DNA of 31,484 nucleotides, from IMG/VR virus record IMGVR_UViG_3300029517_000011. The stretch is one strand, 5' to 3'. Positions 18,680 through 28,401 of the stretch are shown here, in pieces. The stretch is from a virus (lineage: Duplodnaviria > Heunggongvirae > Uroviricota > Caudoviricetes). A program made the translations under genes and the position numbers. The notes under the pieces were generated by a model. That model saw only the letters and a program-made list of their open reading frames with translations, ran no database searches and had not been told where the DNA came from. Position 1 is the stretch's first letter. Every line of letters starts with the position of its first letter.

Positions 18680-20187
18680 TGGCAATTCTTGATGATGTGA
18701 TTGGCGTTTTTTCACCTGGATGGAAAGCGGCAAGGCTGCGTTCCCGTGCGGTGATCCAGGCTTATGAAGCCGTAAAAACGACGCGGACACACAAAGCCCG
18801 ACGGGAGAACCGAACTGCCGACCAGCTAAGCCAGTACGGGGCCGTGTCGTTACGTGAGCAGGCCCGTTACCTTGATAACAACCACGATCTGGTTATTGGT
18901 GTATTTGACAAGCTGGAAGAACGGGTGGTGGGGAAAAACGGGATTATTGTCGAGCCACATCCGGTATTACGCAATGGGGCCATTGCCCGTGATCTGGCAG
19001 CGGAGATTCGCACCCGATGGAGTGAATGGTCTGTCAGCCCGGAAGTCACCGGGCAGTTTACCCGTCCGATGCTGGAACGTCTGATGCTGCGTACCTGGCT
19101 GCGCGATGGTGAGGTGTTTGCCCAGATGGTTTCCGGGCGCATAAACAGCCTGACGCCTTCTGCCGGTGTTCATTTCTGGCTGGAGGCGCTCGAGCCGGAC
19201 TTTATTCCCATGACCAGTGATGAGAGCAACAGGCTGAATCAGGGCGTGTTTGTTGATGACTGGGGGCGTCCCGAAAAATATCTGGTGTATAAAAGCCGTC
19301 CCGTATCCGGACGGCAGATGGAAACCAAAGAAGTGGATGCAGAGCGAATGCTGCATCTTAAATTTGTTCGCCGTCTGCACCAGATGCGCGGGACGTCTTT
19401 GTTGTCCGGTGTGCTGATCCGCCTCAGTGCCCTGAAAGAGTATGAGGATTCTGAGCTGACTGCAGCAAGGATCGCCGCTGCTCTGGGGATGTACATCCGG
19501 AAAGGCGACGGGCAGAGCTATGAACCGGATGGTAATGGCAGCAAGGATAAGGAACGCGAGCTTACCATTCAGCCAGGCATTATTTACGACGATCTGAAAC
19601 CCGGCGAAGAAATCGGAATGGTGAAGTCGGATCGCCCCAATCCTAACCTTGAAACTTTTCGTAATGGTCAGTTGCGTGCCGTGGCGGCGGGCAGTCGTCT
19701 GAGTTTTTCCAGTACAGCGCGCAACTATAACGGCACTTACAGCGCCCAGCGTCAGGAGCTGGTTGAATCCACTGATGGCTACCTGATCCTGCAGGACTGG
19801 TTTATTGGTGCCGTCACCCGCCCGATGTATCGTGCCTGGCTGAAACAGGCTGTGGCATCCGGTGTTATCAGGCTACCCCGCGATCTTGACCGTTCTTCAC
19901 TGTATACCGCGGTGTATTCCGGACCGGTGATGCCGTGGATTGACCCTGTTAAGGAGGCTGAGGCCTGGAAAATTCAGATTCGTGGTGGAGCAGCGACAGA
20001 ATCAGACTGGGTACGTGCAGGTGGTCGTAATCCGGATGATGTCAAACGTCGGCGCAAGGCCGAAATTGATGAAAACCGCAAGCTGGATCTGGTATTTGAT
20101 ACCGATCCGGCCAGTGATAAAGGAGGCAGCAGTGCCGCAACGAAACGACAGGAGCCGCAGCACACCGACGACCAGTCCGAAGAATAA
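18679..20187 (+). CDS. Portal protein (502 aa)
   Basis: ORF track frame 18607-20187; ATG 18679 overlaps the gpW stop (TGATG) with SD GGCGAGG. Size and position after terminase and W. Confidence 0.8.
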   Translation: MAILDDVIGVFSPGWKAARLRSRAVIQAYEAVKTTRTHKARRENRTADQLSQYGAVSLREQARYLDNNHDLVIGVFDKLEERVVGKNGIIVEPHPVLRNGAIARDLAAEIRTRWSEWSVSPEVTGQFTRPMLERLMLRTWLRDGEVFAQMVSGRINSLTPSAGVHFWLEALEPDFIPMTSDESNRLNQGVFVDDWGRPEKYLVYKSRPVSGRQMETKEVDAERMLHLKFVRRLHQMRGTSLLSGVLIRLSALKEYEDSELTAARIAAALGMYIRKGDGQSYEPDGNGSKDKERELTIQPGIIYDDLKPGEEIGMVKSDRPNPNLETFRNGQLRAVAAGSRLSFSSTARNYNGTYSAQRQELVESTDGYLILQDWFIGAVTRPMYRAWLKQAVASGVIRLPRDLDRSSLYTAVYSGPVMPWIDPVKEAEAWKIQIRGGAATESDWVRAGGRNPDDVKRRRKAEIDENRKLDLVFDTDPASDKGGSSAATKRQEPQHTDDQSEE

Positions 20188-20200
20188 TTCCTGGTTCAGG

Positions 20201-22159
20201 ATGCAGGCTGGTCACCAGAGTGACGCGGATATTTATATTTATGACGAGATTGGTTTCTGGGGGGTTACAGCGAAGCAGTTTATCAGTGATCTGAATGCAC
20301 TGGGCGATATCACTCACATTAATCTCCATATCAATTCACCGGGTGGCGATGTCTTTGAAGGCATCGCCATTTTTAATGCGCTGAAAACACATGGTGCGTC
20401 CATTACCGTTTATGTCGACGGTGTGGCGGCGTCAATGGCGTCGGTCATTGCGATGGTGGGAAACCCGGTCATTATGCCGGAAAACACCTTCATGATGATT
20501 CATAAACCATTTGGCTTTACGGGCGGTGATGCGGAGGACATGCGCACCTATGCCGACCTGCTCGATAAGGTTGAGGCGGTTCTGTTACCCGCTTATGCAC
20601 AGAAAACCGGGAAAACCACCGATGAAATTGCTGTCATGCTGGCGGATGAGACCTGGATGTCCGGTGCCGAATGTCTGGCACATGGATTTGCTGATCAGGT
20701 GACGCCAGCCGTTAAGGCAATGGCATGTATTCAGTCAAAACGTACAGAGGAATTTAAAAAGATGCCGGAATCCATTCGAAACATGATTACTCCGCCACGC
20801 AACAGTGCTCCACGCGTACAGGATGATGAACCTGCTGCCTCCCGGACGCCAGTGCAGGCAGCAGCACCCGTGGTGGATGAAAACAGTATCCGTGCGCAGG
20901 TACTGGCAGAGCAAAAAGCGCGTGTAAACGGTATTAATGATCTGTTTGCCATGTTTGGCGGGCGTTATCAGACGCTGCAGGCTCAGTGTCTTGCCGATCC
21001 TGAATGTTCGCTGGAGCAGGCCCGCGAAAAGCTGTTGAACGAGATGGGGCGCGAGTCCACGCCATCCAATAAAAATACCCCGGCTCATATTTATGCCGGT
21101 AACGGTAATTTTGTGGGGGACGGGATCCGCCAGGCGCTGATGGCGCGTGCCGGATTTGAAAAAACCGAACGTGATAATGTCTACAACGGGATGACCCTGC
21201 GTGAATATGCCCGTATGTCACTGACTGAACGGGGTATTGGGGTTTCCAGTTATAACCCGATGCAGATGGTCGGTGCGGCGTTCACACACAGTATGTCTGA
21301 CTTCGGTAATATTCTGCTGGATGTTGCGAACAAAGCCATTCTGCAGGGCTGGGAAGATGCCCCTGAAACCTATGAACAGTGGACGCGGAAAGGTCAGTTG
21401 TCTGATTTTAAAATTGCCCATCGTGTGGGTATGGGGGGCTTCAGTGCTCTGCGTCAGGTGCGTGAAGGGGCGGAATATAAATACGTCACCACCGGAGATA
21501 AACAGGCCACTATTGCACTGGCGACCTATGGCGAGCTGTTCAGTATCACCCGTCAGGCCATTATCAATGATGATCTGAATATGCTGACCGATGTCCCGAT
21601 GAAACTGGGCCGTGCGGCGAAATCCACTATTGCCGATCTGGTTTATGCCATTCTGACGTCTAACCCGAAAATCTCCACAGATAATGTAAGTCTGTTCGAT
21701 AAAGCGAAACATGCAAACGTACTGGAGAGCGCTGCAATGGACGTGGCATCGCTGGATAAAGCCCGCCAGTTGATGCGCGTTCAGAAAGAGGGGGAGCGTC
21801 ATCTGAATATTCGTCCTGCGTTCGTACTGGTACCGACGGCGATGGAGTCTGTTGCTAACCAGGTCATTCGCTCCTCAAGTGTCAAGGGGGCTGACATTAA
21901 CGCCGGTATTATTAACCCGGTGAAAGATTTTGCGACCGTTATTGCAGAGCCTCGTCTTGATGATAACAGCCAGACCACCTTCTACCTGGCTGCGTCAAAA
22001 GGCTCCGATACGATTGAAGTGGCTTATCTCAACGGTGTGGATACGCCATATATTGATCAGATGGAGGGCTTCAGTGTGGATGGCGTGACAACGAAAGTGC
22101 GTATTGACGCCGGTGTCGCGCCAGTTGATCACCGCGGTCTGGTGAAATGTACGGCGTAA
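20201..22159 (+). CDS. Prohead protease (ClpP/S49-like) fused in one frame to a major capsid protein domain (652 aa)
   Basis: ORF track frame 19940-22159; first ATG after the portal stop is 20201. N-terminal region HINSPGGDVFEGIAIFNAL...VDGVAASMASVIAMVG is ClpP-like; the C-terminal roughly 330 aa are capsid-like. Followed by a strong terminator. Confidence 0.7.
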   Translation: MQAGHQSDADIYIYDEIGFWGVTAKQFISDLNALGDITHINLHINSPGGDVFEGIAIFNALKTHGASITVYVDGVAASMASVIAMVGNPVIMPENTFMMIHKPFGFTGGDAEDMRTYADLLDKVEAVLLPAYAQKTGKTTDEIAVMLADETWMSGAECLAHGFADQVTPAVKAMACIQSKRTEEFKKMPESIRNMITPPRNSAPRVQDDEPAASRTPVQAAAPVVDENSIRAQVLAEQKARVNGINDLFAMFGGRYQTLQAQCLADPECSLEQAREKLLNEMGRESTPSNKNTPAHIYAGNGNFVGDGIRQALMARAGFEKTERDNVYNGMTLREYARMSLTERGIGVSSYNPMQMVGAAFTHSMSDFGNILLDVANKAILQGWEDAPETYEQWTRKGQLSDFKIAHRVGMGGFSALRQVREGAEYKYVTTGDKQATIALATYGELFSITRQAIINDDLNMLTDVPMKLGRAAKSTIADLVYAILTSNPKISTDNVSLFDKAKHANVLESAAMDVASLDKARQLMRVQKEGERHLNIRPAFVLVPTAMESVANQVIRSSSVKGADINAGIINPVKDFATVIAEPRLDDNSQTTFYLAASKGSDTIEVAYLNGVDTPYIDQMEGFSVDGVTTKVRIDAGVAPVDHRGLVKCTA

Positions 22160-23835: not shown

Positions 23836-24579
23836 ATGACCACGCCAAATCCACTGGCAAAGACGAAAGGTGCGGGGACGACGTTCTGGATGTATACCGG
23901 CAACGGCGATGCGTTTGCGAACCCTTTGTCGGACACTGACTGGCTGCGTCTTGCGATGGTGAAGGATCTGCAACCTGGCGAAATGACCGCTGATGCAGAA
24001 GATGACACTTATCTCGATGATGAAGATGCAGACTGGAAAACGACAACCCAGGGGCAGAAATCCGTTGGTGATACTTCGGCGACGCTGGCCTGGCGTCCGG
24101 GTGACAGCGGGCAGAAAAAACTGGTTCAGTTGTTCGACTCCGGTGAAGTCTGCGCGTTTCGTATCAAATATCCCAACGGCACTGTTGATGTTTTCCGCGG
24201 CTGGCTGAGCTCACTGGGTAAAACCATTGCCTCAAAAGACGTGATGACCCGCACAGTGAAAATCAGCGGTGTGGGGCGTCCATATCTGGCAGAGGAGGGC
24301 ACTGAAACTGTGGGCGTTACCGGGCTGACGGTGGCACCGGCATCCGCCAGTGTCAATGTGGGAGCAACCACCACGCTGACCTTTACAGTAAAACCTGACG
24401 GAGCCAGTGACAAAGCGATCAGTGTGCATTCGACAGATCCACAGACAGCCACTGTGACCCTGAACGGACTTGTGGCCACGGTGAAAGGCGTGAAGCAGGG
24501 CAGCGTCAGCATTGTGGGCATGACCGCTGACGGGAATTTTGTGGCTGTGGCTGCGGTGACTGTCAGCGCTGCAGGTTAA
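23836..24579 (+). CDS. Major tail protein V-like with C-terminal Ig-like (Big_2-type) domain (247 aa)
   Basis: ORF track frame 23761-24579; SD AGGAGG then ATG 23836. C-terminal TVAPASASVNVGATTTLTFTVKP...VSAAG is Ig-like as in lambda gpV. Confidence 0.8.
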   Translation: MTTPNPLAKTKGAGTTFWMYTGNGDAFANPLSDTDWLRLAMVKDLQPGEMTADAEDDTYLDDEDADWKTTTQGQKSVGDTSATLAWRPGDSGQKKLVQLFDSGEVCAFRIKYPNGTVDVFRGWLSSLGKTIASKDVMTRTVKISGVGRPYLAEEGTETVGVTGLTVAPASASVNVGATTTLTFTVKPDGASDKAISVHSTDPQTATVTLNGLVATVKGVKQGSVSIVGMTADGNFVAVAAVTVSAAG

Positions 24580-24599: not shown

Positions 24600-24623
24600 G
24601 CCCCGGTTATCCGGGGCTTTTTT
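24600..24623 (+). terminator. Intrinsic terminator/attenuator after the major tail gene
   Basis: Stem GCCCCGG / CCGGGGC with TTAT loop followed by TTTTTT. Confidence 0.65.
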
Positions 24624-24639
24624 GCAGGTGGAGAACATG

Positions 24640-25026
24640 ATGTTTCTGAAACAGGGCACGTTTAATTATGAAAAGCAGTCCGTGGTGCTCAGTGAGCTGT
24701 CCGGGCTGCAGAGAATTGAATATCTGGCGTTTGTTCAGCAGCGAACGGCAAAGTTTGATGCCGAAGAGGGAGAACTGCCGGAGGCTGAACGACAGATTGC
24801 TTTTCTGCGGATGGGGATGGATATCAATGCCTGGCTGGTTTCCCGCTCACTGTGGAATGCGGAACAGTCTCAGGATGTTGAGACGCTTTGCGCATCCGTT
24901 ATTACAACATGGTCGTATGATGCCCTGGGAGCGGGGGCGGAGATGGTTCTGTCGCTGAGCGGTATGGGAGCCATTGAGAATGCCGGGGATTTGGAGCATG
25001 AGGTGCTGACGCCGGAAAAGTCCTGA
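24640..25026 (+). CDS. Tail assembly chaperone G-like
   Basis: ORF track frame 24598-25026; SD GGTGGAGA then ATG 24640. MFLKQGTFNYEKQSVVLSELSGLQRIEYLA resembles lambda gpG (MFLKTESFEH...LSELSALQRIEHLA from memory). Confidence 0.8.
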   Translation: MFLKQGTFNYEKQSVVLSELSGLQRIEYLAFVQQRTAKFDAEEGELPEAERQIAFLRMGMDINAWLVSRSLWNAEQSQDVETLCASVITTWSYDALGAGAEMVLSLSGMGAIENAGDLEHEVLTPEKS

Positions 25027-25364
25027 CGCGGGAAATGCAGTTTGTCATGCGGCTTGCCCGGGAGTTCCGGCGGGCAGACTGGCGGCGGATGCTGTCGGAA
25101 ATGTCGGCCACTGAGCTTGGTGAGTGGGGCGATTATTTCCGGATGCAGAGCTTCAGTGATGTGTGGATGGATGCGCAGTTTGCCTCGCTGAAGGCATTGA
25201 TCGTGAGAATGGTGTCCGGTAGCAGTGATGCTGCGGTGGCTGATTTCAGCCTTTTACCGGAAGAGAACGGGATACCGGAGCGAACGGACGAAGAACTGAT
25301 GCATCTTGGGGAAGGTATTTCCGGAGGTGTGCGTTATGGACCAGATAGCCAACCTGGTCATTGA
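25014..25364 (+). CDS. T-frame segment of tail assembly chaperone, predicted to be made as a G-T fusion by programmed -1 frameshift
   Basis: -1 frame is open from 25002 to stop 25364 (ORF track lists it from an internal ATG at 25035). Candidate slip site G GAA AAG at 25014-25020, four codons before the G stop. Confidence 0.6.
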   Translation, partial: GKVLTREMQFVMRLAREFRRADWRRMLSEMSATELGEWGDYFRMQSFSDVWMDAQFASLKALIVRMVSGSSDAAVADFSLLPEENGIPERTDEELMHLGEGISGGVRYGPDSQPGH

Positions 25365-28300
25365 TTTGGGGATTGATGCGGCAGAGTTTAAAAATGAAAT
25401 TCCCCGTATCAAAAACCTTCTGAATGGTGCAGCCAGCGATGCAGAACGGTCTTCTGCCCGTATGCAGCGTTTTATGGAGCGTCAGACTCAGGCCGCCCGG
25501 CAGACAATGCAGGCGGCTTCTTCGGCTGCAACAGCCGCATCCGTCCATGCGCAGACGGTGGAGAAGAGCGCACAGGCTCATGAACGCATGGCCCGCGAGG
25601 TGGAGCAAACCCGCCAGCGTATGGAGGCACTGAGCCAGAAAATGCGCGAGGAACAGGCGCAGGCCATGGCTCTGGCGGAGGCTCAGGATAAAGCAGCTGC
25701 TGCGTTTTATCGTCAGATTGACAGTGTGAAACAGGCCAGTGCGGGGCTGCAGGAATTACAGCGTATTCAGCAGCAGATCCGACAGGCCAGAAACAGTGGC
25801 GGGATTGGTCAGCAGGATTATCTGGCGCTGATTTCTGAGGTTACGGCGAAAACCCGTGTTCTTACGCAGGCTGAGGAAGAGTCTACCCGACAGAAAGTGG
25901 CGTTTATCCGTCAGCTTAAAGAGCAGGCAACCCGCCAGAATCTTTCTTCTTCTGAGTTGCTTCGTGCCAGGGCTGCCCAGCTGGGGGTAAGCAGTGCTGC
26001 AGAAGTGTATATCCGCAAAATGGAGCAGGCAGGAAAAGCCACGCATTCGCTGGGTCTGAAAAGTGCAGCAGCCCGCCAGGAGATAGGCGTTCTGATAGGT
26101 GAACTGGCCCGTGGCAATTTAGGAGCGCTGAGGGGATCCGGGATAACGCTGGCTAACCGTGCCGGATGGATAGACACACTGATGTCACCGAAAGGCATGA
26201 TGCCAGGCGCGGTTATTGGCGGTATTGCCGCGGCCGTCTATGGTCTGGGTAAAGCCTGGTATGACGGTCAGAAGGAGGGGGAAGAATTTAACCGCCAGCT
26301 GTCGCTGACGGGGCATTATGCCGGAGTCACTGCCGGGCAGCTGTGGACGCTCAGTCGTGCTATTTCCGGGAATGGTATCACGCAACATGCTGCAGCCGGT
26401 GCGCTGGCTCAGGTGGTGGGGAGTGGTGCATTTCGTGGAAACGATATCGGTATGGTGGCGAGAGCTGCCGCACAGATGGAGCGATCGGTTGGCCAGTCGG
26501 TCAGCGATACCATAAATCAGTTTAAGCGGCTGAAGGATGATCCTGTAAATGCCGCGAAGGCTCTGGACAATGAGCTGCATTTTCTTACTGCCACTCAGCT
26601 TGAGCAGATACGCGTCCTTGGGGAGCAGGGGCGGTCCAGTGATGCTGCACGGATAGCCATGTCTGCACTGGCAGAGGAAACCGGTCGGCGTACTGCGGAT
26701 ATTGATAATAACCTCAATGCGCTTGGCAGTACGCTGAAGTATCTGTCTGATTTATGGAGTCGTTTCTGGGATGCGGCCATGAATATTGGTCGTGAAGACT
26801 CGCTGGATGAACAGATTGCCGCTTTACAGGAGAAAGTGTCGCGGGCGAAAAGACTCCCCTGGACGGCATCATCTTCTCAGGTTGAATACGATCAGCAGCG
26901 TCTTAACGATCTTCAGGAGAAAAAACGCCAGAAGGATTTGCAGGATGCAAAAGAGCAGGCAGAGCGGAATTATCAGGAGCAACAGAAACGCCGTAATGCT
27001 GAAAATGCTGCACTGAACCGGATGAATGAAACGGAAGCAGCACGACATCAGCGTGAAATAGCGCGTATTAATGCCATGCAGTACGCCGATCAGGCTGTCA
27101 GGGATGCGGCGATACAACGTGAAAATGAACGTTACGAGAAAGCCCTGGCATCCGGTAAGAAAAAAACACGCGAAACCCGTAATGATGAGGCCACCCGGTT
27201 ATTGCTGCAGTACAGTCAGCAACAGGCACAGGTGGAAGGACAGATTGCTGCTGCCAGACAGTCAGCAGGCATTGCCACGGAAAGGATGACAGAAGCGCAT
27301 AAACAGCTTCTGGCTCTGCAGCAGCGCATCAGCGACCTGGACGGGAAAAAACTGACGGCAGATGAAAAGAGTGTGCTGGCCCGTAAAGATGAACTGATTC
27401 AGGCACTGACGCTGCTGGATGTAAAACAGCAGGAGCTTCAGAAACAGACGGCACTCAACGAGCTGAAGAAAAAAACAATTCAGCTGACCAGTCAACTGGC
27501 TGAAGAAGAGCGCGCTCAGCGTCAGCAACATGACCTGGATATCGCCACGGTGGGTATGGGTGATCAGCAGCGACAGCGATATCAGGTACAACTGAGTCTT
27601 CGCCAGAAATACCAGCAACAGCTGGAGCAGTTGAGGCGGGATAGTGAGCAGAAAGGGACATATAACACGGATGACTACAGAAAGGCCGAGCAGGCGCTGA
27701 CGGAGAGCCTGAACCGACAACTGAATGAGAATCGCCGTTACTGGCAACAGCTTGAAGTTGTACAGGGTAACTGGAAAAACGGAGTCCTGCGTGCATTTCA
27801 GGATTTTACCGTGGATGCAGATAATACGGCAGAAACAGCAGAACAGGTGTTCTCGTCAGCCTTCAGCAACATGGGAAATGGCCTGGCAACTTTTGTCACT
27901 ACCGGCAAACTCAATTTCAAATCCTTCACCTCTTCGGTGCTGTCAGATATGGCGAAAATCCTGGCGCAGGCAACCATGATGAAATCGATAAAAGGGATTG
28001 GCAGTGTACTGGGATTTGATCTCAGCAGCCTTTCCCTGAATGCCAATGGGGGGATTTATCAGTCTGCTGATTTGAGTCGTTACAGTGGCACGGTGGTTAA
28101 CCGTCCGACGTTTTTTGCTTTTGCAAAAGGCGCGGGTGTGATGGGGGAAGCGGGACCTGAAGCCATTCTGCCATTGCGTCGTGGTGCTGACGGTAAGCTG
28201 GGGGTTGTGGCGGATATTGGGGGTTCAGGTATGGCGATGTTTTCCCCGCAGTACAACATCGAGATCAATAACGATGGCACGAACGGGCAGATAGGTCCGG

Positions 28301-28401
28301 CTGCCCTGAAGGCGGTTTATGACCTCGGGAAAAAAGCGGCAGCGGACTTTATGCAACAGCAGGCCCGTGATGGTGGTCGGTTAAGTGGAGCATATCGGTA
28401 A
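25336..28401 (+). CDS. Tail tape measure protein H-like (1021 aa)
   Basis: ORF track frame 25306-28401; SD GGAGG then ATG 25336. Long coiled-coil-rich protein; C-terminal NNDGTNGQIGPAALKAVYD matches the lambda H C-terminus as I recall it. Confidence 0.85.
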   Translation: MDQIANLVIDLGIDAAEFKNEIPRIKNLLNGAASDAERSSARMQRFMERQTQAARQTMQAASSAATAASVHAQTVEKSAQAHERMAREVEQTRQRMEALSQKMREEQAQAMALAEAQDKAAAAFYRQIDSVKQASAGLQELQRIQQQIRQARNSGGIGQQDYLALISEVTAKTRVLTQAEEESTRQKVAFIRQLKEQATRQNLSSSELLRARAAQLGVSSAAEVYIRKMEQAGKATHSLGLKSAAARQEIGVLIGELARGNLGALRGSGITLANRAGWIDTLMSPKGMMPGAVIGGIAAAVYGLGKAWYDGQKEGEEFNRQLSLTGHYAGVTAGQLWTLSRAISGNGITQHAAAGALAQVVGSGAFRGNDIGMVARAAAQMERSVGQSVSDTINQFKRLKDDPVNAAKALDNELHFLTATQLEQIRVLGEQGRSSDAARIAMSALAEETGRRTADIDNNLNALGSTLKYLSDLWSRFWDAAMNIGREDSLDEQIAALQEKVSRAKRLPWTASSSQVEYDQQRLNDLQEKKRQKDLQDAKEQAERNYQEQQKRRNAENAALNRMNETEAARHQREIARINAMQYADQAVRDAAIQRENERYEKALASGKKKTRETRNDEATRLLLQYSQQQAQVEGQIAAARQSAGIATERMTEAHKQLLALQQRISDLDGKKLTADEKSVLARKDELIQALTLLDVKQQELQKQTALNELKKKTIQLTSQLAEEERAQRQQHDLDIATVGMGDQQRQRYQVQLSLRQKYQQQLEQLRRDSEQKGTYNTDDYRKAEQALTESLNRQLNENRRYWQQLEVVQGNWKNGVLRAFQDFTVDADNTAETAEQVFSSAFSNMGNGLATFVTTGKLNFKSFTSSVLSDMAKILAQATMMKSIKGIGSVLGFDLSSLSLNANGGIYQSADLSRYSGTVVNRPTFFAFAKGAGVMGEAGPEAILPLRRGADGKLGVVADIGGSGMAMFSPQYNIEINNDGTNGQIGPAALKAVYDLGKKAAADFMQQQARDGGRLSGAYR

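What the first reader, a model, noticed from the sequence alone, without database searches (positions are those of the whole stretch)
25002..25035. Predicted G-T programmed -1 frameshift with a non-canonical slippery heptamer (G GAA AAG)
The T reading frame is open in the -1 frame from 25002 and overlaps the last eight codons of G, as in lambda. However, the only slippery-like sequence in the overlap is G_GAA_AAG (25014-25020) rather than lambda's G_GGA_AAG. The P-site tRNA would have to re-pair GAA onto GGA with a middle-position mismatch. Either frameshifting here is less efficient or it uses a different mechanism.
Basis: partly seen in the sequence, partly recalled or inferred. Interest (0 to 1): 0.45.

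Follow-up and report, generated by a model that had tools for sequence, protein, structure and literature searches.

The report
Lambda-type G–T tail chaperone frameshift site
This is the usual phage tail-assembly "G/GT" programmed -1 ribosomal frameshift, using the slip sequence G_GAA_AAG, one base away from lambda's; that variant is already annotated in phages N15, phi80 and LLS and is the commonest form among the relatives I compared.

Summary
G (24640-25026, Pfam Phage_TAC_2) ends ...CCG GAA AAG TCC TGA. The T reading frame (Phage_tail_T) is open in the -1 frame from 25002 to 25364. G_GAA_AAG (25014-25020) is the only slip-prone sequence in the 7-codon shift window.

Across 24-29 related G-T junctions from Escherichia, Salmonella, Citrobacter, Proteus, Providencia, Morganella, Kluyvera, Ewingella, Pantoea and Vibrio phages, the junctions align without gaps except in the two Vibrio phages. 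The central AAA is invariant, and third-codon-position variation switches from the G frame to the T frame at the heptamer. The window's ATG at 25035 exists only in the E. coli clade and has no Shine-Dalgarno sequence.

GGAAAAG is not new. GenBank records of N15, phi80 and LLS mark it as the -1 slippery sequence at the homologous position. It occurs in at least five clades of the T tree, so lambda's canonical G_GGA_AAG is the minority state. The invariant core is A_AAR (tRNA-Lys slipping AAG to AAA); the P-site codon varies (GAA, GGA, GCA, GTA, AAA, CCA).

No conserved downstream structure was found. This allele has a Shine-Dalgarno-like GAGGTG 8 nt upstream. Efficiency is untested. This is a new member of a known kind, of low to moderate interest. 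Public records that annotate T as a stand-alone gene are probably wrong.

The parts
23836..24579 (+). Major tail tube gene (lambda V-like, with a C-terminal Ig-like domain). It is the upstream neighbour that defines the synteny.
   Evidence: Pfam Phage_TTP_12 E=1.2e-66 and Big_2 E=1.3e-11.
24600..24623 (+). Intrinsic-terminator-like hairpin plus T-run between V and G. It would lower G/T/H transcription relative to V.
   Evidence: Scan hit with 7 GC pairs and a TTTTTT run. The equivalent site is annotated as a terminator in phages Ayreon and mEp460, and a similar feature is annotated in N15.
24640..25026 (+). Gene G, the tail assembly chaperone (128 aa). It is the 0-frame product. An alternative ATG lies at 24637.
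   Evidence: Pfam Phage_TAC_2 E=1.7e-39. RefSeq annotates gpG at the same coordinates.
24999..25001 (+). TGA in the -1 frame. This is the 5' limit of the window in which a -1 shift can give full-length GT.
   Evidence: Read directly from the sequence.
25000..25005 (+). Shine-Dalgarno-like GAGGTG, separated from the heptamer by 8 nt. It is a candidate lineage-specific 5' stimulator and its role is inferred, not shown.
   Evidence: Anti-SD duplex of -9.2 kcal/mol, in the top 4% of 14-nt windows in G. The site is polymorphic in E. coli relatives: GAGGTG 49, GAGGCG 21. It is absent in the N15 clade.
25014..25020 (+). Slip site G_GAA_AAG. The A-site tRNA-Lys moves from AAG to AAA. The P-site tRNA-Glu moves from GAA to GGA with a central G.U.
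   Evidence: for the sequence. Conserved at the homologous position in relatives. The same heptamer is annotated as the -1 slippery sequence in N15, phi80 and LLS.
25024..25026 (+). G stop codon (TGA), one codon after the slip site.
25020..25364 (+). T segment read in the -1 frame after the shift (114 aa). Predicted GT is join(24640..25020,25020..25364), 241 aa, with junction ...VLTPEK|VLTREMQFVM...
   Evidence: Pfam Phage_tail_T E=5e-15. Fusion reconstructed. Codon-position variation switches to this frame at the heptamer.
25035..25037 (+). ATG used by all database records as the start of a stand-alone T. It is probably just an internal Met codon.
   Evidence: No SD core upstream. The ATG occurs only in the E. 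coli clade, and its position is Leu in the Salmonella and Citrobacter relatives. Annotated as the T start in mEp460 and RefSeq.
25336..28401 (+). Tape measure gene (lambda H-like). It is the downstream neighbour and overlaps the end of T by 29 nt.
   Evidence: Pfam TMP_2 E=4.4e-49 and Tape_meas_lam_C E=4.7e-22.

Best explanation
A small fraction of ribosomes translating G slip back one base at G_GAA_AAG (25014-25020), miss the G stop at 25024 and continue in the T frame. This makes a 241-aa G-T fusion alongside a large excess of the 128-aa G, as in lambda tail assembly. The essential event is tRNA-Lys (anticodon mnm5s2UUU) leaving AAG and re-pairing on the overlapping AAA. tRNA-Glu on GAA either re-pairs on GGA (first and third positions Watson-Crick, central G.U) or simply gives up its third base. 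Both routes give the same protein. What is shown: the gene identities, the synteny, the frame arrangement, conservation of the site, and the switch of coding frame at the site. What is inferred: that shifting happens, its rate (probably around a per cent or a few, by analogy with about 4% in lambda), and any help from the upstream GAGGUG.
For: Pfam identities and the V-G-T-H gene order. The heptamer is the only -1 slip-prone site in the 7-codon shift window. The AAA core is invariant in 24 of 24 divergent junctions, and position 3 of the preceding codon is always A even though that codon encodes E, G, A, V, K or P. Third-position variation is highest in the G frame upstream (1.88 bits) and in the T frame downstream (1.51 bits) of the heptamer. 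T lacks a conserved start codon, and residues invariant across the family lie upstream of the window's ATG. The same heptamer at the homologous position is annotated as the frameshift site, with joined GT CDSs, in phi80 and LLS and as a slippery sequence in N15. Gifsy-1 and Gifsy-2 T are annotated as made by frameshifting. The module is carried by isolated phages (Ayreon, mEp460, cdtI, Tritos) and by 1848 of 5426 complete E. coli genomes, so it is not a decaying mutant. A_AAG is the most shift-prone tetramer in E. coli (Sharma 2014), and natural single-tRNA sites such as G_CGA_AAG and A_CGA_AAG exist (Atkins 2016 review).
Against: There is no direct evidence for a GT protein from this heptamer in any source I could read. 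In a purified E. coli system the exact sequence AUG GAA AAG gave mainly the 0-frame product and was used as the 'less slippery' control (Peng 2019). A_AAG without a stimulator was barely above background in vivo (0.15%) and needed a pseudoknot to reach 5.6%, yet no conserved 3' structure exists here. The ATG at 25035, 8 nt after the G stop, could allow some termination-reinitiation in this clade.
Confidence: 0.85

Rival explanations
1. T is made on its own from ATG 25035, either by direct initiation or by termination-reinitiation after the G stop 8 nt upstream, as every database record of this clade annotates it. No frameshift would then be needed.
For: There is an in-frame ATG at 25035. mEp460, cdtI and RefSeq PGAP annotate a 109-aa T from it. 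The short distance from the G stop would permit coupling.
Against: There is no SD core in the 14 nt upstream. That position is Leu in Gifsy-1, Fels-1, Gifsy-2 and Citrobacter. In 13 lineages the first ATG is at codon +24, inside the conserved domain. Invariant K1 and E6 lie upstream of the ATG. Annotators disagree among themselves: Ayreon starts T at 25101. From my own knowledge of Xu, Hendrix and Duda (2013, 2014), the lambda T domain works only when tethered to G.
Confidence: 0.08
2. The shift is made at the RNA level: RNA polymerase slips on the A-run and a fraction of transcripts carry one extra A or one A fewer.
For: The site contains AAAA. Transcriptional slippage is used elsewhere for similar two-product genes (Atkins 2016 review).
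Against: The run is only four A residues. To my knowledge, productive slippage by bacterial RNA polymerase needs runs of about 7-9 or more. Family members keep A_AAR but never extend the run, apart from the Stx phages' A_AAA_AAG, which is itself a classic ribosomal site.
Confidence: 0.03
3. G_GAA_AAG is a degenerate, non-functional copy of lambda's G_GGA_AAG in a decaying prophage, and T is not expressed.
For: It differs from the lambda heptamer by one G-to-A change. The sequence is common in prophages.
Against: The site is identical in isolated phages. It is conserved across genera at 43-70% identity. The T frame is intact and shows a coding-type substitution pattern. The heptamer is found in at least five clades of the T tree.
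Confidence: 0.02

Closest known systems
Bacteriophage lambda G / G-T programmed -1 frameshift (Levin, Hendrix and Casjens 1993; Xu, Hendrix and Duda 2004, 2013, 2014)
   Same: Homologous G and T proteins (PF06894, PF06223) and the same V-G-T-H gene order. The slip site is at the homologous position, with -1 frame 'GK' in both. Neither has a conserved 3' structure in my alignment.
   Different: Lambda has the canonical G_GGA_AAG with the stop 5 codons later. The window has G_GAA_AAG with the stop 1 codon later. T is only 37% identical. The window has an ATG just after the site and a Shine-Dalgarno-like GAGGTG before it.
Phages N15 (gene 14/15), phi80 (gpG-T), LLS, mEp043 and HK225
   Same: Exactly the same heptamer, GGAAAAG, in the same frame at the homologous position. 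It is explicitly annotated as the -1 slippery sequence in N15, phi80 and LLS.
   Different: T is about 41-45% identical. The G stop is 5 codons after the site, not 1. There is no Shine-Dalgarno-like element upstream (duplex energy about 0). The preceding codon is GCG or GTG rather than CCG.
Salmonella prophages Gifsy-1, Gifsy-2 and Fels-1
   Same: The nearest divergent relatives (67-70% nucleotide identity). They have identical CCG GAA AAG YCC TGA, and T is annotated as made by frameshifting in Gifsy-1 and Gifsy-2.
   Different: They have no ATG at the position of 25035. The overlap is longer (28 nt).
Single-tRNA (tetra- or hexanucleotide) A_AAG sites: IS1222 G_CGA_AAG and Bacillus subtilis cdd A_CGA_AAG (Licznar et al. 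2003; reviewed by Atkins 2016)
   Same: The A-site tRNA-Lys slips from AAG to AAA while the P-site codon cannot re-pair canonically.
   Different: According to the tetramer assays, such sites need a strong 3' stimulator to shift appreciably, and none is detectable here. GAA on GGA still keeps two Watson-Crick pairs plus a G.U, so the site lies between a heptamer and a tetramer.
E. coli dnaX (A_AAA_AAG with an upstream SD-like sequence and a downstream hairpin)
   Same: An SD-like element at a comparable distance upstream of an AAG slip codon (GAGGUG, 8 nt).
   Different: There is no downstream hairpin. The SD-like element is not conserved across the family. The expected efficiency is far lower than the value of up to about 80% that the Atkins 2016 review gives for dnaX.

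Membership tests
Lambda-type tail assembly chaperone G/GT frameshift cassette | Two overlapping ORFs lying between the major tail tube gene and the tape measure gene | tested here: met
   V-like 23836-24579, G 24640-25026, T frame 25002-25364, H-like 25336-28401.
Lambda-type tail assembly chaperone G/GT frameshift cassette | Upstream ORF homologous to gpG | tested here: met
   PF06894 Phage_TAC_2, E=1.7e-39, 134.9 bits against a cut-off of 27.
Lambda-type tail assembly chaperone G/GT frameshift cassette | Downstream ORF homologous to gpT, in the -1 frame, overlapping the 3' end of G | tested here: met
   PF06223 Phage_tail_T, E=5.1e-15. The overlap is 22 nt before the G stop.
Lambda-type tail assembly chaperone G/GT frameshift cassette | No conserved independent translation start for the downstream ORF | tested here: met
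   The ATG at codon +6 is found only in the E. coli clade and lacks an SD. In other lineages the first ATG is at +10 to +24, inside the conserved domain.
Lambda-type tail assembly chaperone G/GT frameshift cassette | Slip-prone sequence in the overlap, conserved at the homologous position | tested here: met
   The A_AAR core is invariant in 24 of 24 junctions. The coding-frame signal switches at the heptamer.
Lambda-type tail assembly chaperone G/GT frameshift cassette | Fusion protein GT actually produced at a low percentage of G | not testable with these tools
   This needs a reporter assay, a western blot or mass spectrometry. No such data for this heptamer were found in the paper library.
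Canonical X_XXY_YYZ tandem-slippage heptamers | Both the P-site and the A-site tRNA can re-pair in the -1 frame with at most a wobble-position change | tested here: not met
   The A site is satisfied (AAG to AAA). P-site GAA on GGA has a second-position G.U (sequence; stated the same way by Peng 2019).
Single-tRNA A_AAG (hexanucleotide) frameshift sites | A_AAG in the 0 frame with a P-site codon that varies freely among relatives | tested here: met
   Relatives have P-site codons GAA, GCA, GTA, GGA, AAA and CCA. Position 1 is A or C in Morganella-type phages.
Single-tRNA A_AAG (hexanucleotide) frameshift sites | A strong 3' stimulator (hairpin or pseudoknot) a few nucleotides downstream | tested here: not met
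   Window folds give z-scores from -0.96 to +0.5. The 24-sequence consensus structure is -1.4 kcal/mol with no covariation. The six-sequence subset gives only a helix starting about 40 nt downstream, with an unfavourable covariation term.
dnaX-type stimulated -1 frameshift | SD-like sequence 6-17 nt upstream of the slip site | tested here: inconclusive
   GAGGTG lies 8 nt upstream (-9.2 kcal/mol, top 4%) in this allele. It is weaker in the GAGGCG allele (-5.6), absent in the N15 clade and strong in Pantoea (-11).

The most novel reading that the evidence does not exclude
In this chaperone family the real, selected slip signal may be only A_AAR plus a matching first base, roughly X_XNA_AAR. The shortfall in P-site pairing would then be made up differently in each lineage: by an internal Shine-Dalgarno sequence (GAGGUG here, GGGGAGGA in Pantoea), or by a stop codon placed directly after the slip codon (Proteus, Providencia, Morganella, Kluyvera, Ewingella). 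Because both tRNAs at G_GAA_AAG (Glu and Lys) carry mnm5s2U34, the G:GT ratio of these very common E. coli and Salmonella prophages would be even more sensitive to host 2-thiolation than lambda's. The family would then be a natural mutational series for P-site rules of bacterial -1 frameshifting.
Probability: 0.3. Interest if true: 0.45.

Novelty: new member of a known kind. Interest (0 to 1): 0.28.

Why it matters
There are three consequences, all modest.

1. **Annotation.** All 17 close phage records and RefSeq's annotation of a prophage module present in about a third of complete E. coli genomes call T a stand-alone gene, with inconsistent starts. The 241-aa GT fusion is missing from these records.

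2. **Prediction tools.** Tools and surveys that accept only X_XXY_YYZ would miss the commonest slip site found among the relatives of the textbook example sampled here.

3. **A natural series of slip sites.** The family holds G_GAA_AAG, G_GGA_AAG, G_GCA_AAA, G_GTA_AAG, A/C_GAA_AAG, A_AAA_AAG and C_CCA_AAA at one homologous site. This gives a ready-made set for measuring how much P-site re-pairing matters in bacteria.

None of this changes the accepted picture of tail assembly.

Tried and rejected
- **Downstream stimulator.** I folded four windows around and after the site. All were within the range of shuffled sequences (z from -0.96 to +0.5). RNAalifold on 24 junctions gave -1.4 kcal/mol and no compensatory pairs. 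A six-sequence subset of close relatives gave only a small 5-bp hairpin abutting the site (broken in Gifsy-2) and a helix about 40 nt downstream, with an unfavourable covariation term. I rejected a conserved 3' structure.
- **Independent start for T.** I checked this across 28 lineages and rejected it as the family's mechanism.
- **Decaying-prophage mutation.** Rejected.
- **Literature.** Full-text searches for GGAAAAG and 'G GAA AAG' with frameshift, phage or tail found only Peng et al. 2019, where the heptamer is a low-slippage control. A search for N15/phi80 frameshift papers gave nothing relevant. Licznar et al. 2003 reportedly measured all NNA_AAG hexamers and would give the value for GAA_AAG, but it is not held in the library. 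Xu et al. 2004 could not be read either, so I cannot say whether GGAAAAG is listed there.
- **Second viral-contig scan.** A scan with a divergent T profile returned mostly the same E. coli prophages and added only five new junction types.
- **Transcriptional slippage.** I considered it and set it aside because the A-run is only 4 nt.

Full report
**What is in the sequence**

The finding's coordinates are right. Gene G runs from 24640 to 25026, with an alternative ATG at 24637 and GGAG at 24630-24633. It ends ...GAG GTG CTG ACG CCG GAA AAG TCC TGA. In the -1 frame there is a TGA at 24999-25001, and the frame is then open from 25002 to a stop at 25362-25364.

A -1 shift must therefore happen within seven codons (25003-25023) to give a long product. 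Within those codons G_GAA_AAG (25014-25020) is the only place where an A-site tRNA can re-pair cognately one base back. The predicted fusion is join(24640..25020,25020..25364). It has 127 + 114 = 241 aa and the junction ...VLTPEK|VLTREMQFVM....

**Gene identities and setting**

- G matches Pfam Phage_TAC_2 (lambda gpG) at E=1.7e-39.
- The -1 ORF matches Phage_tail_T at E=5e-15.
- The upstream gene is a lambda-type tail tube protein with an Ig-like domain.
- The downstream gene is a tape measure protein.

The region is 98-99.9% identical to phages Ayreon, mEp460, cdtI, Tritos and others. It is 100% identical to prophages in E. coli O157:H7, and the module occurs in 1848 of 5426 complete E. coli genomes.

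None of these records annotates a frameshift. mEp460 and RefSeq start a 109-aa T at ATG 25035. Ayreon starts it at 25101.

**Comparative test of the frameshift**

The nearest divergent relatives are Gifsy-1, Fels-1 and Gifsy-2 (67-70% nucleotide identity). They keep CCGGAAAAG exactly while the flanks differ, and G ends TPEKS* or TPEKP*. The window's ATG codon is CTG or CTT in them. Gifsy-1 and Gifsy-2 T are annotated as 'part of gpG by translational frameshifting'.

A scan of one genome per species found 22 loci, reaching down to 43% identity. More distant phage relatives came from a tblastn search with T. All junctions line up, without gaps except in the two Vibrio phages:

| Lineage | 0-frame sequence at the junction |
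|---|---|
| E. coli, Shigella, Salmonella, Citrobacter | CCG GAA AAG YCC TGA |
| Proteus, Providencia heimbachae | CTG GAA AAG TAG |
| Morganella type | GC[A/C] GAA AAG TAA |
| Kluyvera, Ewingella type | CTG GCA AAA TAG |
| Providencia rustigianii | ATG GGA AAA TAG |
| Pantoea | AAG GTA AAG ... |
| N15, phi80, LLS, mEp043, HK225 | GCG/GTG GAA AAG ... |
| lambda and some Stx2a phages | GCG GGA AAG |
| other Stx phages | TCA AAA AAG |
| Vibrio phages | GAC CCA AAA |

In the 24-sequence alignment, heptamer positions 4-6 (AAA) have zero entropy, against 1.2-2.0 bits in most flanking columns. Position 7 is G in 19 and A in 5. Position 3 is A in 15, G in 3, C in 4 and T in 2.

The codon before the slip codon always ends in A although it encodes six different amino acids. 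That points to selection on the nucleotide rather than on the protein.

Upstream of the heptamer, variation peaks at third positions of the G frame (1.88 bits against 1.55 and 1.32). Downstream, it peaks at third positions of the T frame (1.51 bits against 0.89 and 0.78). The frame under protein-coding selection therefore changes at the heptamer.

**The rival start codon**

The ATG six codons after the slip Lys is confined to the E. coli clade and has no Shine-Dalgarno core. In 13 lineages the first ATG is at codon +24, inside the invariant LAREFxRPDWR block. Family-invariant K1 and E6 lie upstream of the window's ATG.

Independent initiation therefore cannot be the family's way of making T. 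Some termination-reinitiation in this clade cannot be excluded.

**Is the heptamer new?**

No. GenBank records mark GGAAAAG at the homologous position:
- N15: misc_feature 'slippery sequence for -1 translational frameshift'.
- phi80: the same label, with a joined gpG-T CDS.
- LLS: 'minus-one programmed translational frameshift site GGAAAAG', with a joined CDS.

On a neighbour-joining tree of T, G_GAA_AAG appears in at least five clades, while canonical heptamers are scattered minorities. P. heimbachae (G_GAA_AAG) and P. rustigianii (G_GGA_AAA) have T proteins 77% identical, so the two kinds of site interchange readily.

The PRFect authors also report many non-XXXYYYZ motifs in tail chaperone frameshifts. 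One is GGGGGAA, in which tRNA-Glu re-pairs on GGA through the same G.U.

**Mechanism**

The invariant element is A_AAR, that is, tRNA-Lys re-pairing from AAG or AAA onto AAA. In E. coli, A_AAG is the most shift-prone tetramer, and efficient motifs are those that allow cognate A-site re-pairing (Sharma 2014). Natural single-tRNA sites G_CGA_AAG and A_CGA_AAG are known.

For G_GAA_AAG, the P-site tRNA-Glu would keep its first- and third-position pairs and take a central G.U on GGA.

Evidence that this is a weak site:
- Peng et al. used exactly AUG GAA AAG as the less slippery control and saw mainly 0-frame product with wild-type EF-G.
- A_AAG without a stimulator gave about 0.15% in vivo, against 5.6% with a pseudoknot.

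Only a low level of shifting is needed. Lambda shifts about 4% of the time, and a high G:GT ratio is required.

**Stimulators**

I found no conserved 3' structure. Upstream, this allele has GAGGTG separated from the heptamer by 8 nt. Its anti-SD duplex is -9.2 kcal/mol, in the top 4% of windows within G.

The element is polymorphic, however (GAGGTG 49, GAGGCG 21 among IMG/VR relatives), and it is absent in the N15 clade.

Two other patterns are suggestive but rest on few lineages. Pantoea, with a poor P-site match (G_GTA_AAG) and a distant stop, has a very strong GGGGAGGA 9 nt upstream (-11 kcal/mol). The poorest other motifs (A/C_GAA_AAG and G_GCA_AAA) all have the stop codon directly after the slip codon.

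**Verdict**

This is an unannotated member of the well-known lambda-type G/GT frameshift family, and its slip-site variant is already annotated in sister phages.

What remains open is quantitative: how efficient G_GAA_AAG is in its native context, and what sets that efficiency. The practical outcome is an annotation correction. The comparison also shows that lambda's canonical heptamer is the exception among the relatives sampled here.

Noticed in passing
window 24600-24623: A strong terminator-like hairpin (GCCCCGG TTAT CCGGGGC followed by TTTTTT) lies between the major tail gene and G. It is annotated as a terminator in Ayreon and mEp460, and N15 has a similar feature at the same place. It would reduce G/T/H expression relative to the tail tube protein.
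   Followed up: partly
window 25035 and 25101; L001 3504-3767, L002 1938-2267, L003 1896-2225: Public records disagree on the start of T (ATG 25035 in mEp460 and RefSeq, ATG 25101 in Ayreon), and none joins it to G. This is probably a systematic mis-annotation affecting a prophage module found in about a third of complete E. coli genomes.
   Followed up: yes
L024 about 1855-1862 (Pantoea latae) and L027 (P. piersonii): The Pantoea relatives use G_GTA_AAG, whose P-site codon cannot re-pair well, and carry a very strong internal Shine-Dalgarno-like GGGGAGGA 9 nt upstream (-11 kcal/mol against anti-SD, top 0-1% within G). This resembles the dnaX arrangement.
   Followed up: partly
L017/L018 1887-1896, L127 and L149 698-707, L015/L016, L019-L023, L028: In Morganella-, Proteus-, Providencia-, Kluyvera- and Ewingella-type relatives the G stop codon follows the slip Lys codon directly (for example GAA AAG TAA and GCA AAA TAG). 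This group includes the motifs with the poorest P-site re-pairing, which suggests help from a 'shifty stop'.
   Followed up: partly
window 19940-22159: A 739-aa ORF appears to fuse a ClpP-like prohead protease or scaffold to a major capsid-like C-terminal part. The Ayreon record calls the equivalent gene 'putative ClpP protease-like protein/scaffold protein'.
   Followed up: no
window 25336-25364: The tape measure gene starts 29 nt before the end of the T frame, so three reading frames (G, T and H) are used within about 350 nt.
   Followed up: no
L007 (JAEWTL010000010.1) and L011 (JAGTSE010000010.1): Metagenome-assembled genomes labelled 'Bacillota bacterium' and 'Proteobacteria bacterium' (soil) carry this E. 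coli prophage module at 94-99% protein identity. The likely cause is binning contamination.
   Followed up: no
L030 and L031 (IMG/VR): Two viral contigs have G interrupted by indels (G ORFs of 105 and 79 codons) but keep the slip-site 18-mer. These are probably assembly or sequencing errors rather than biology.
   Followed up: no
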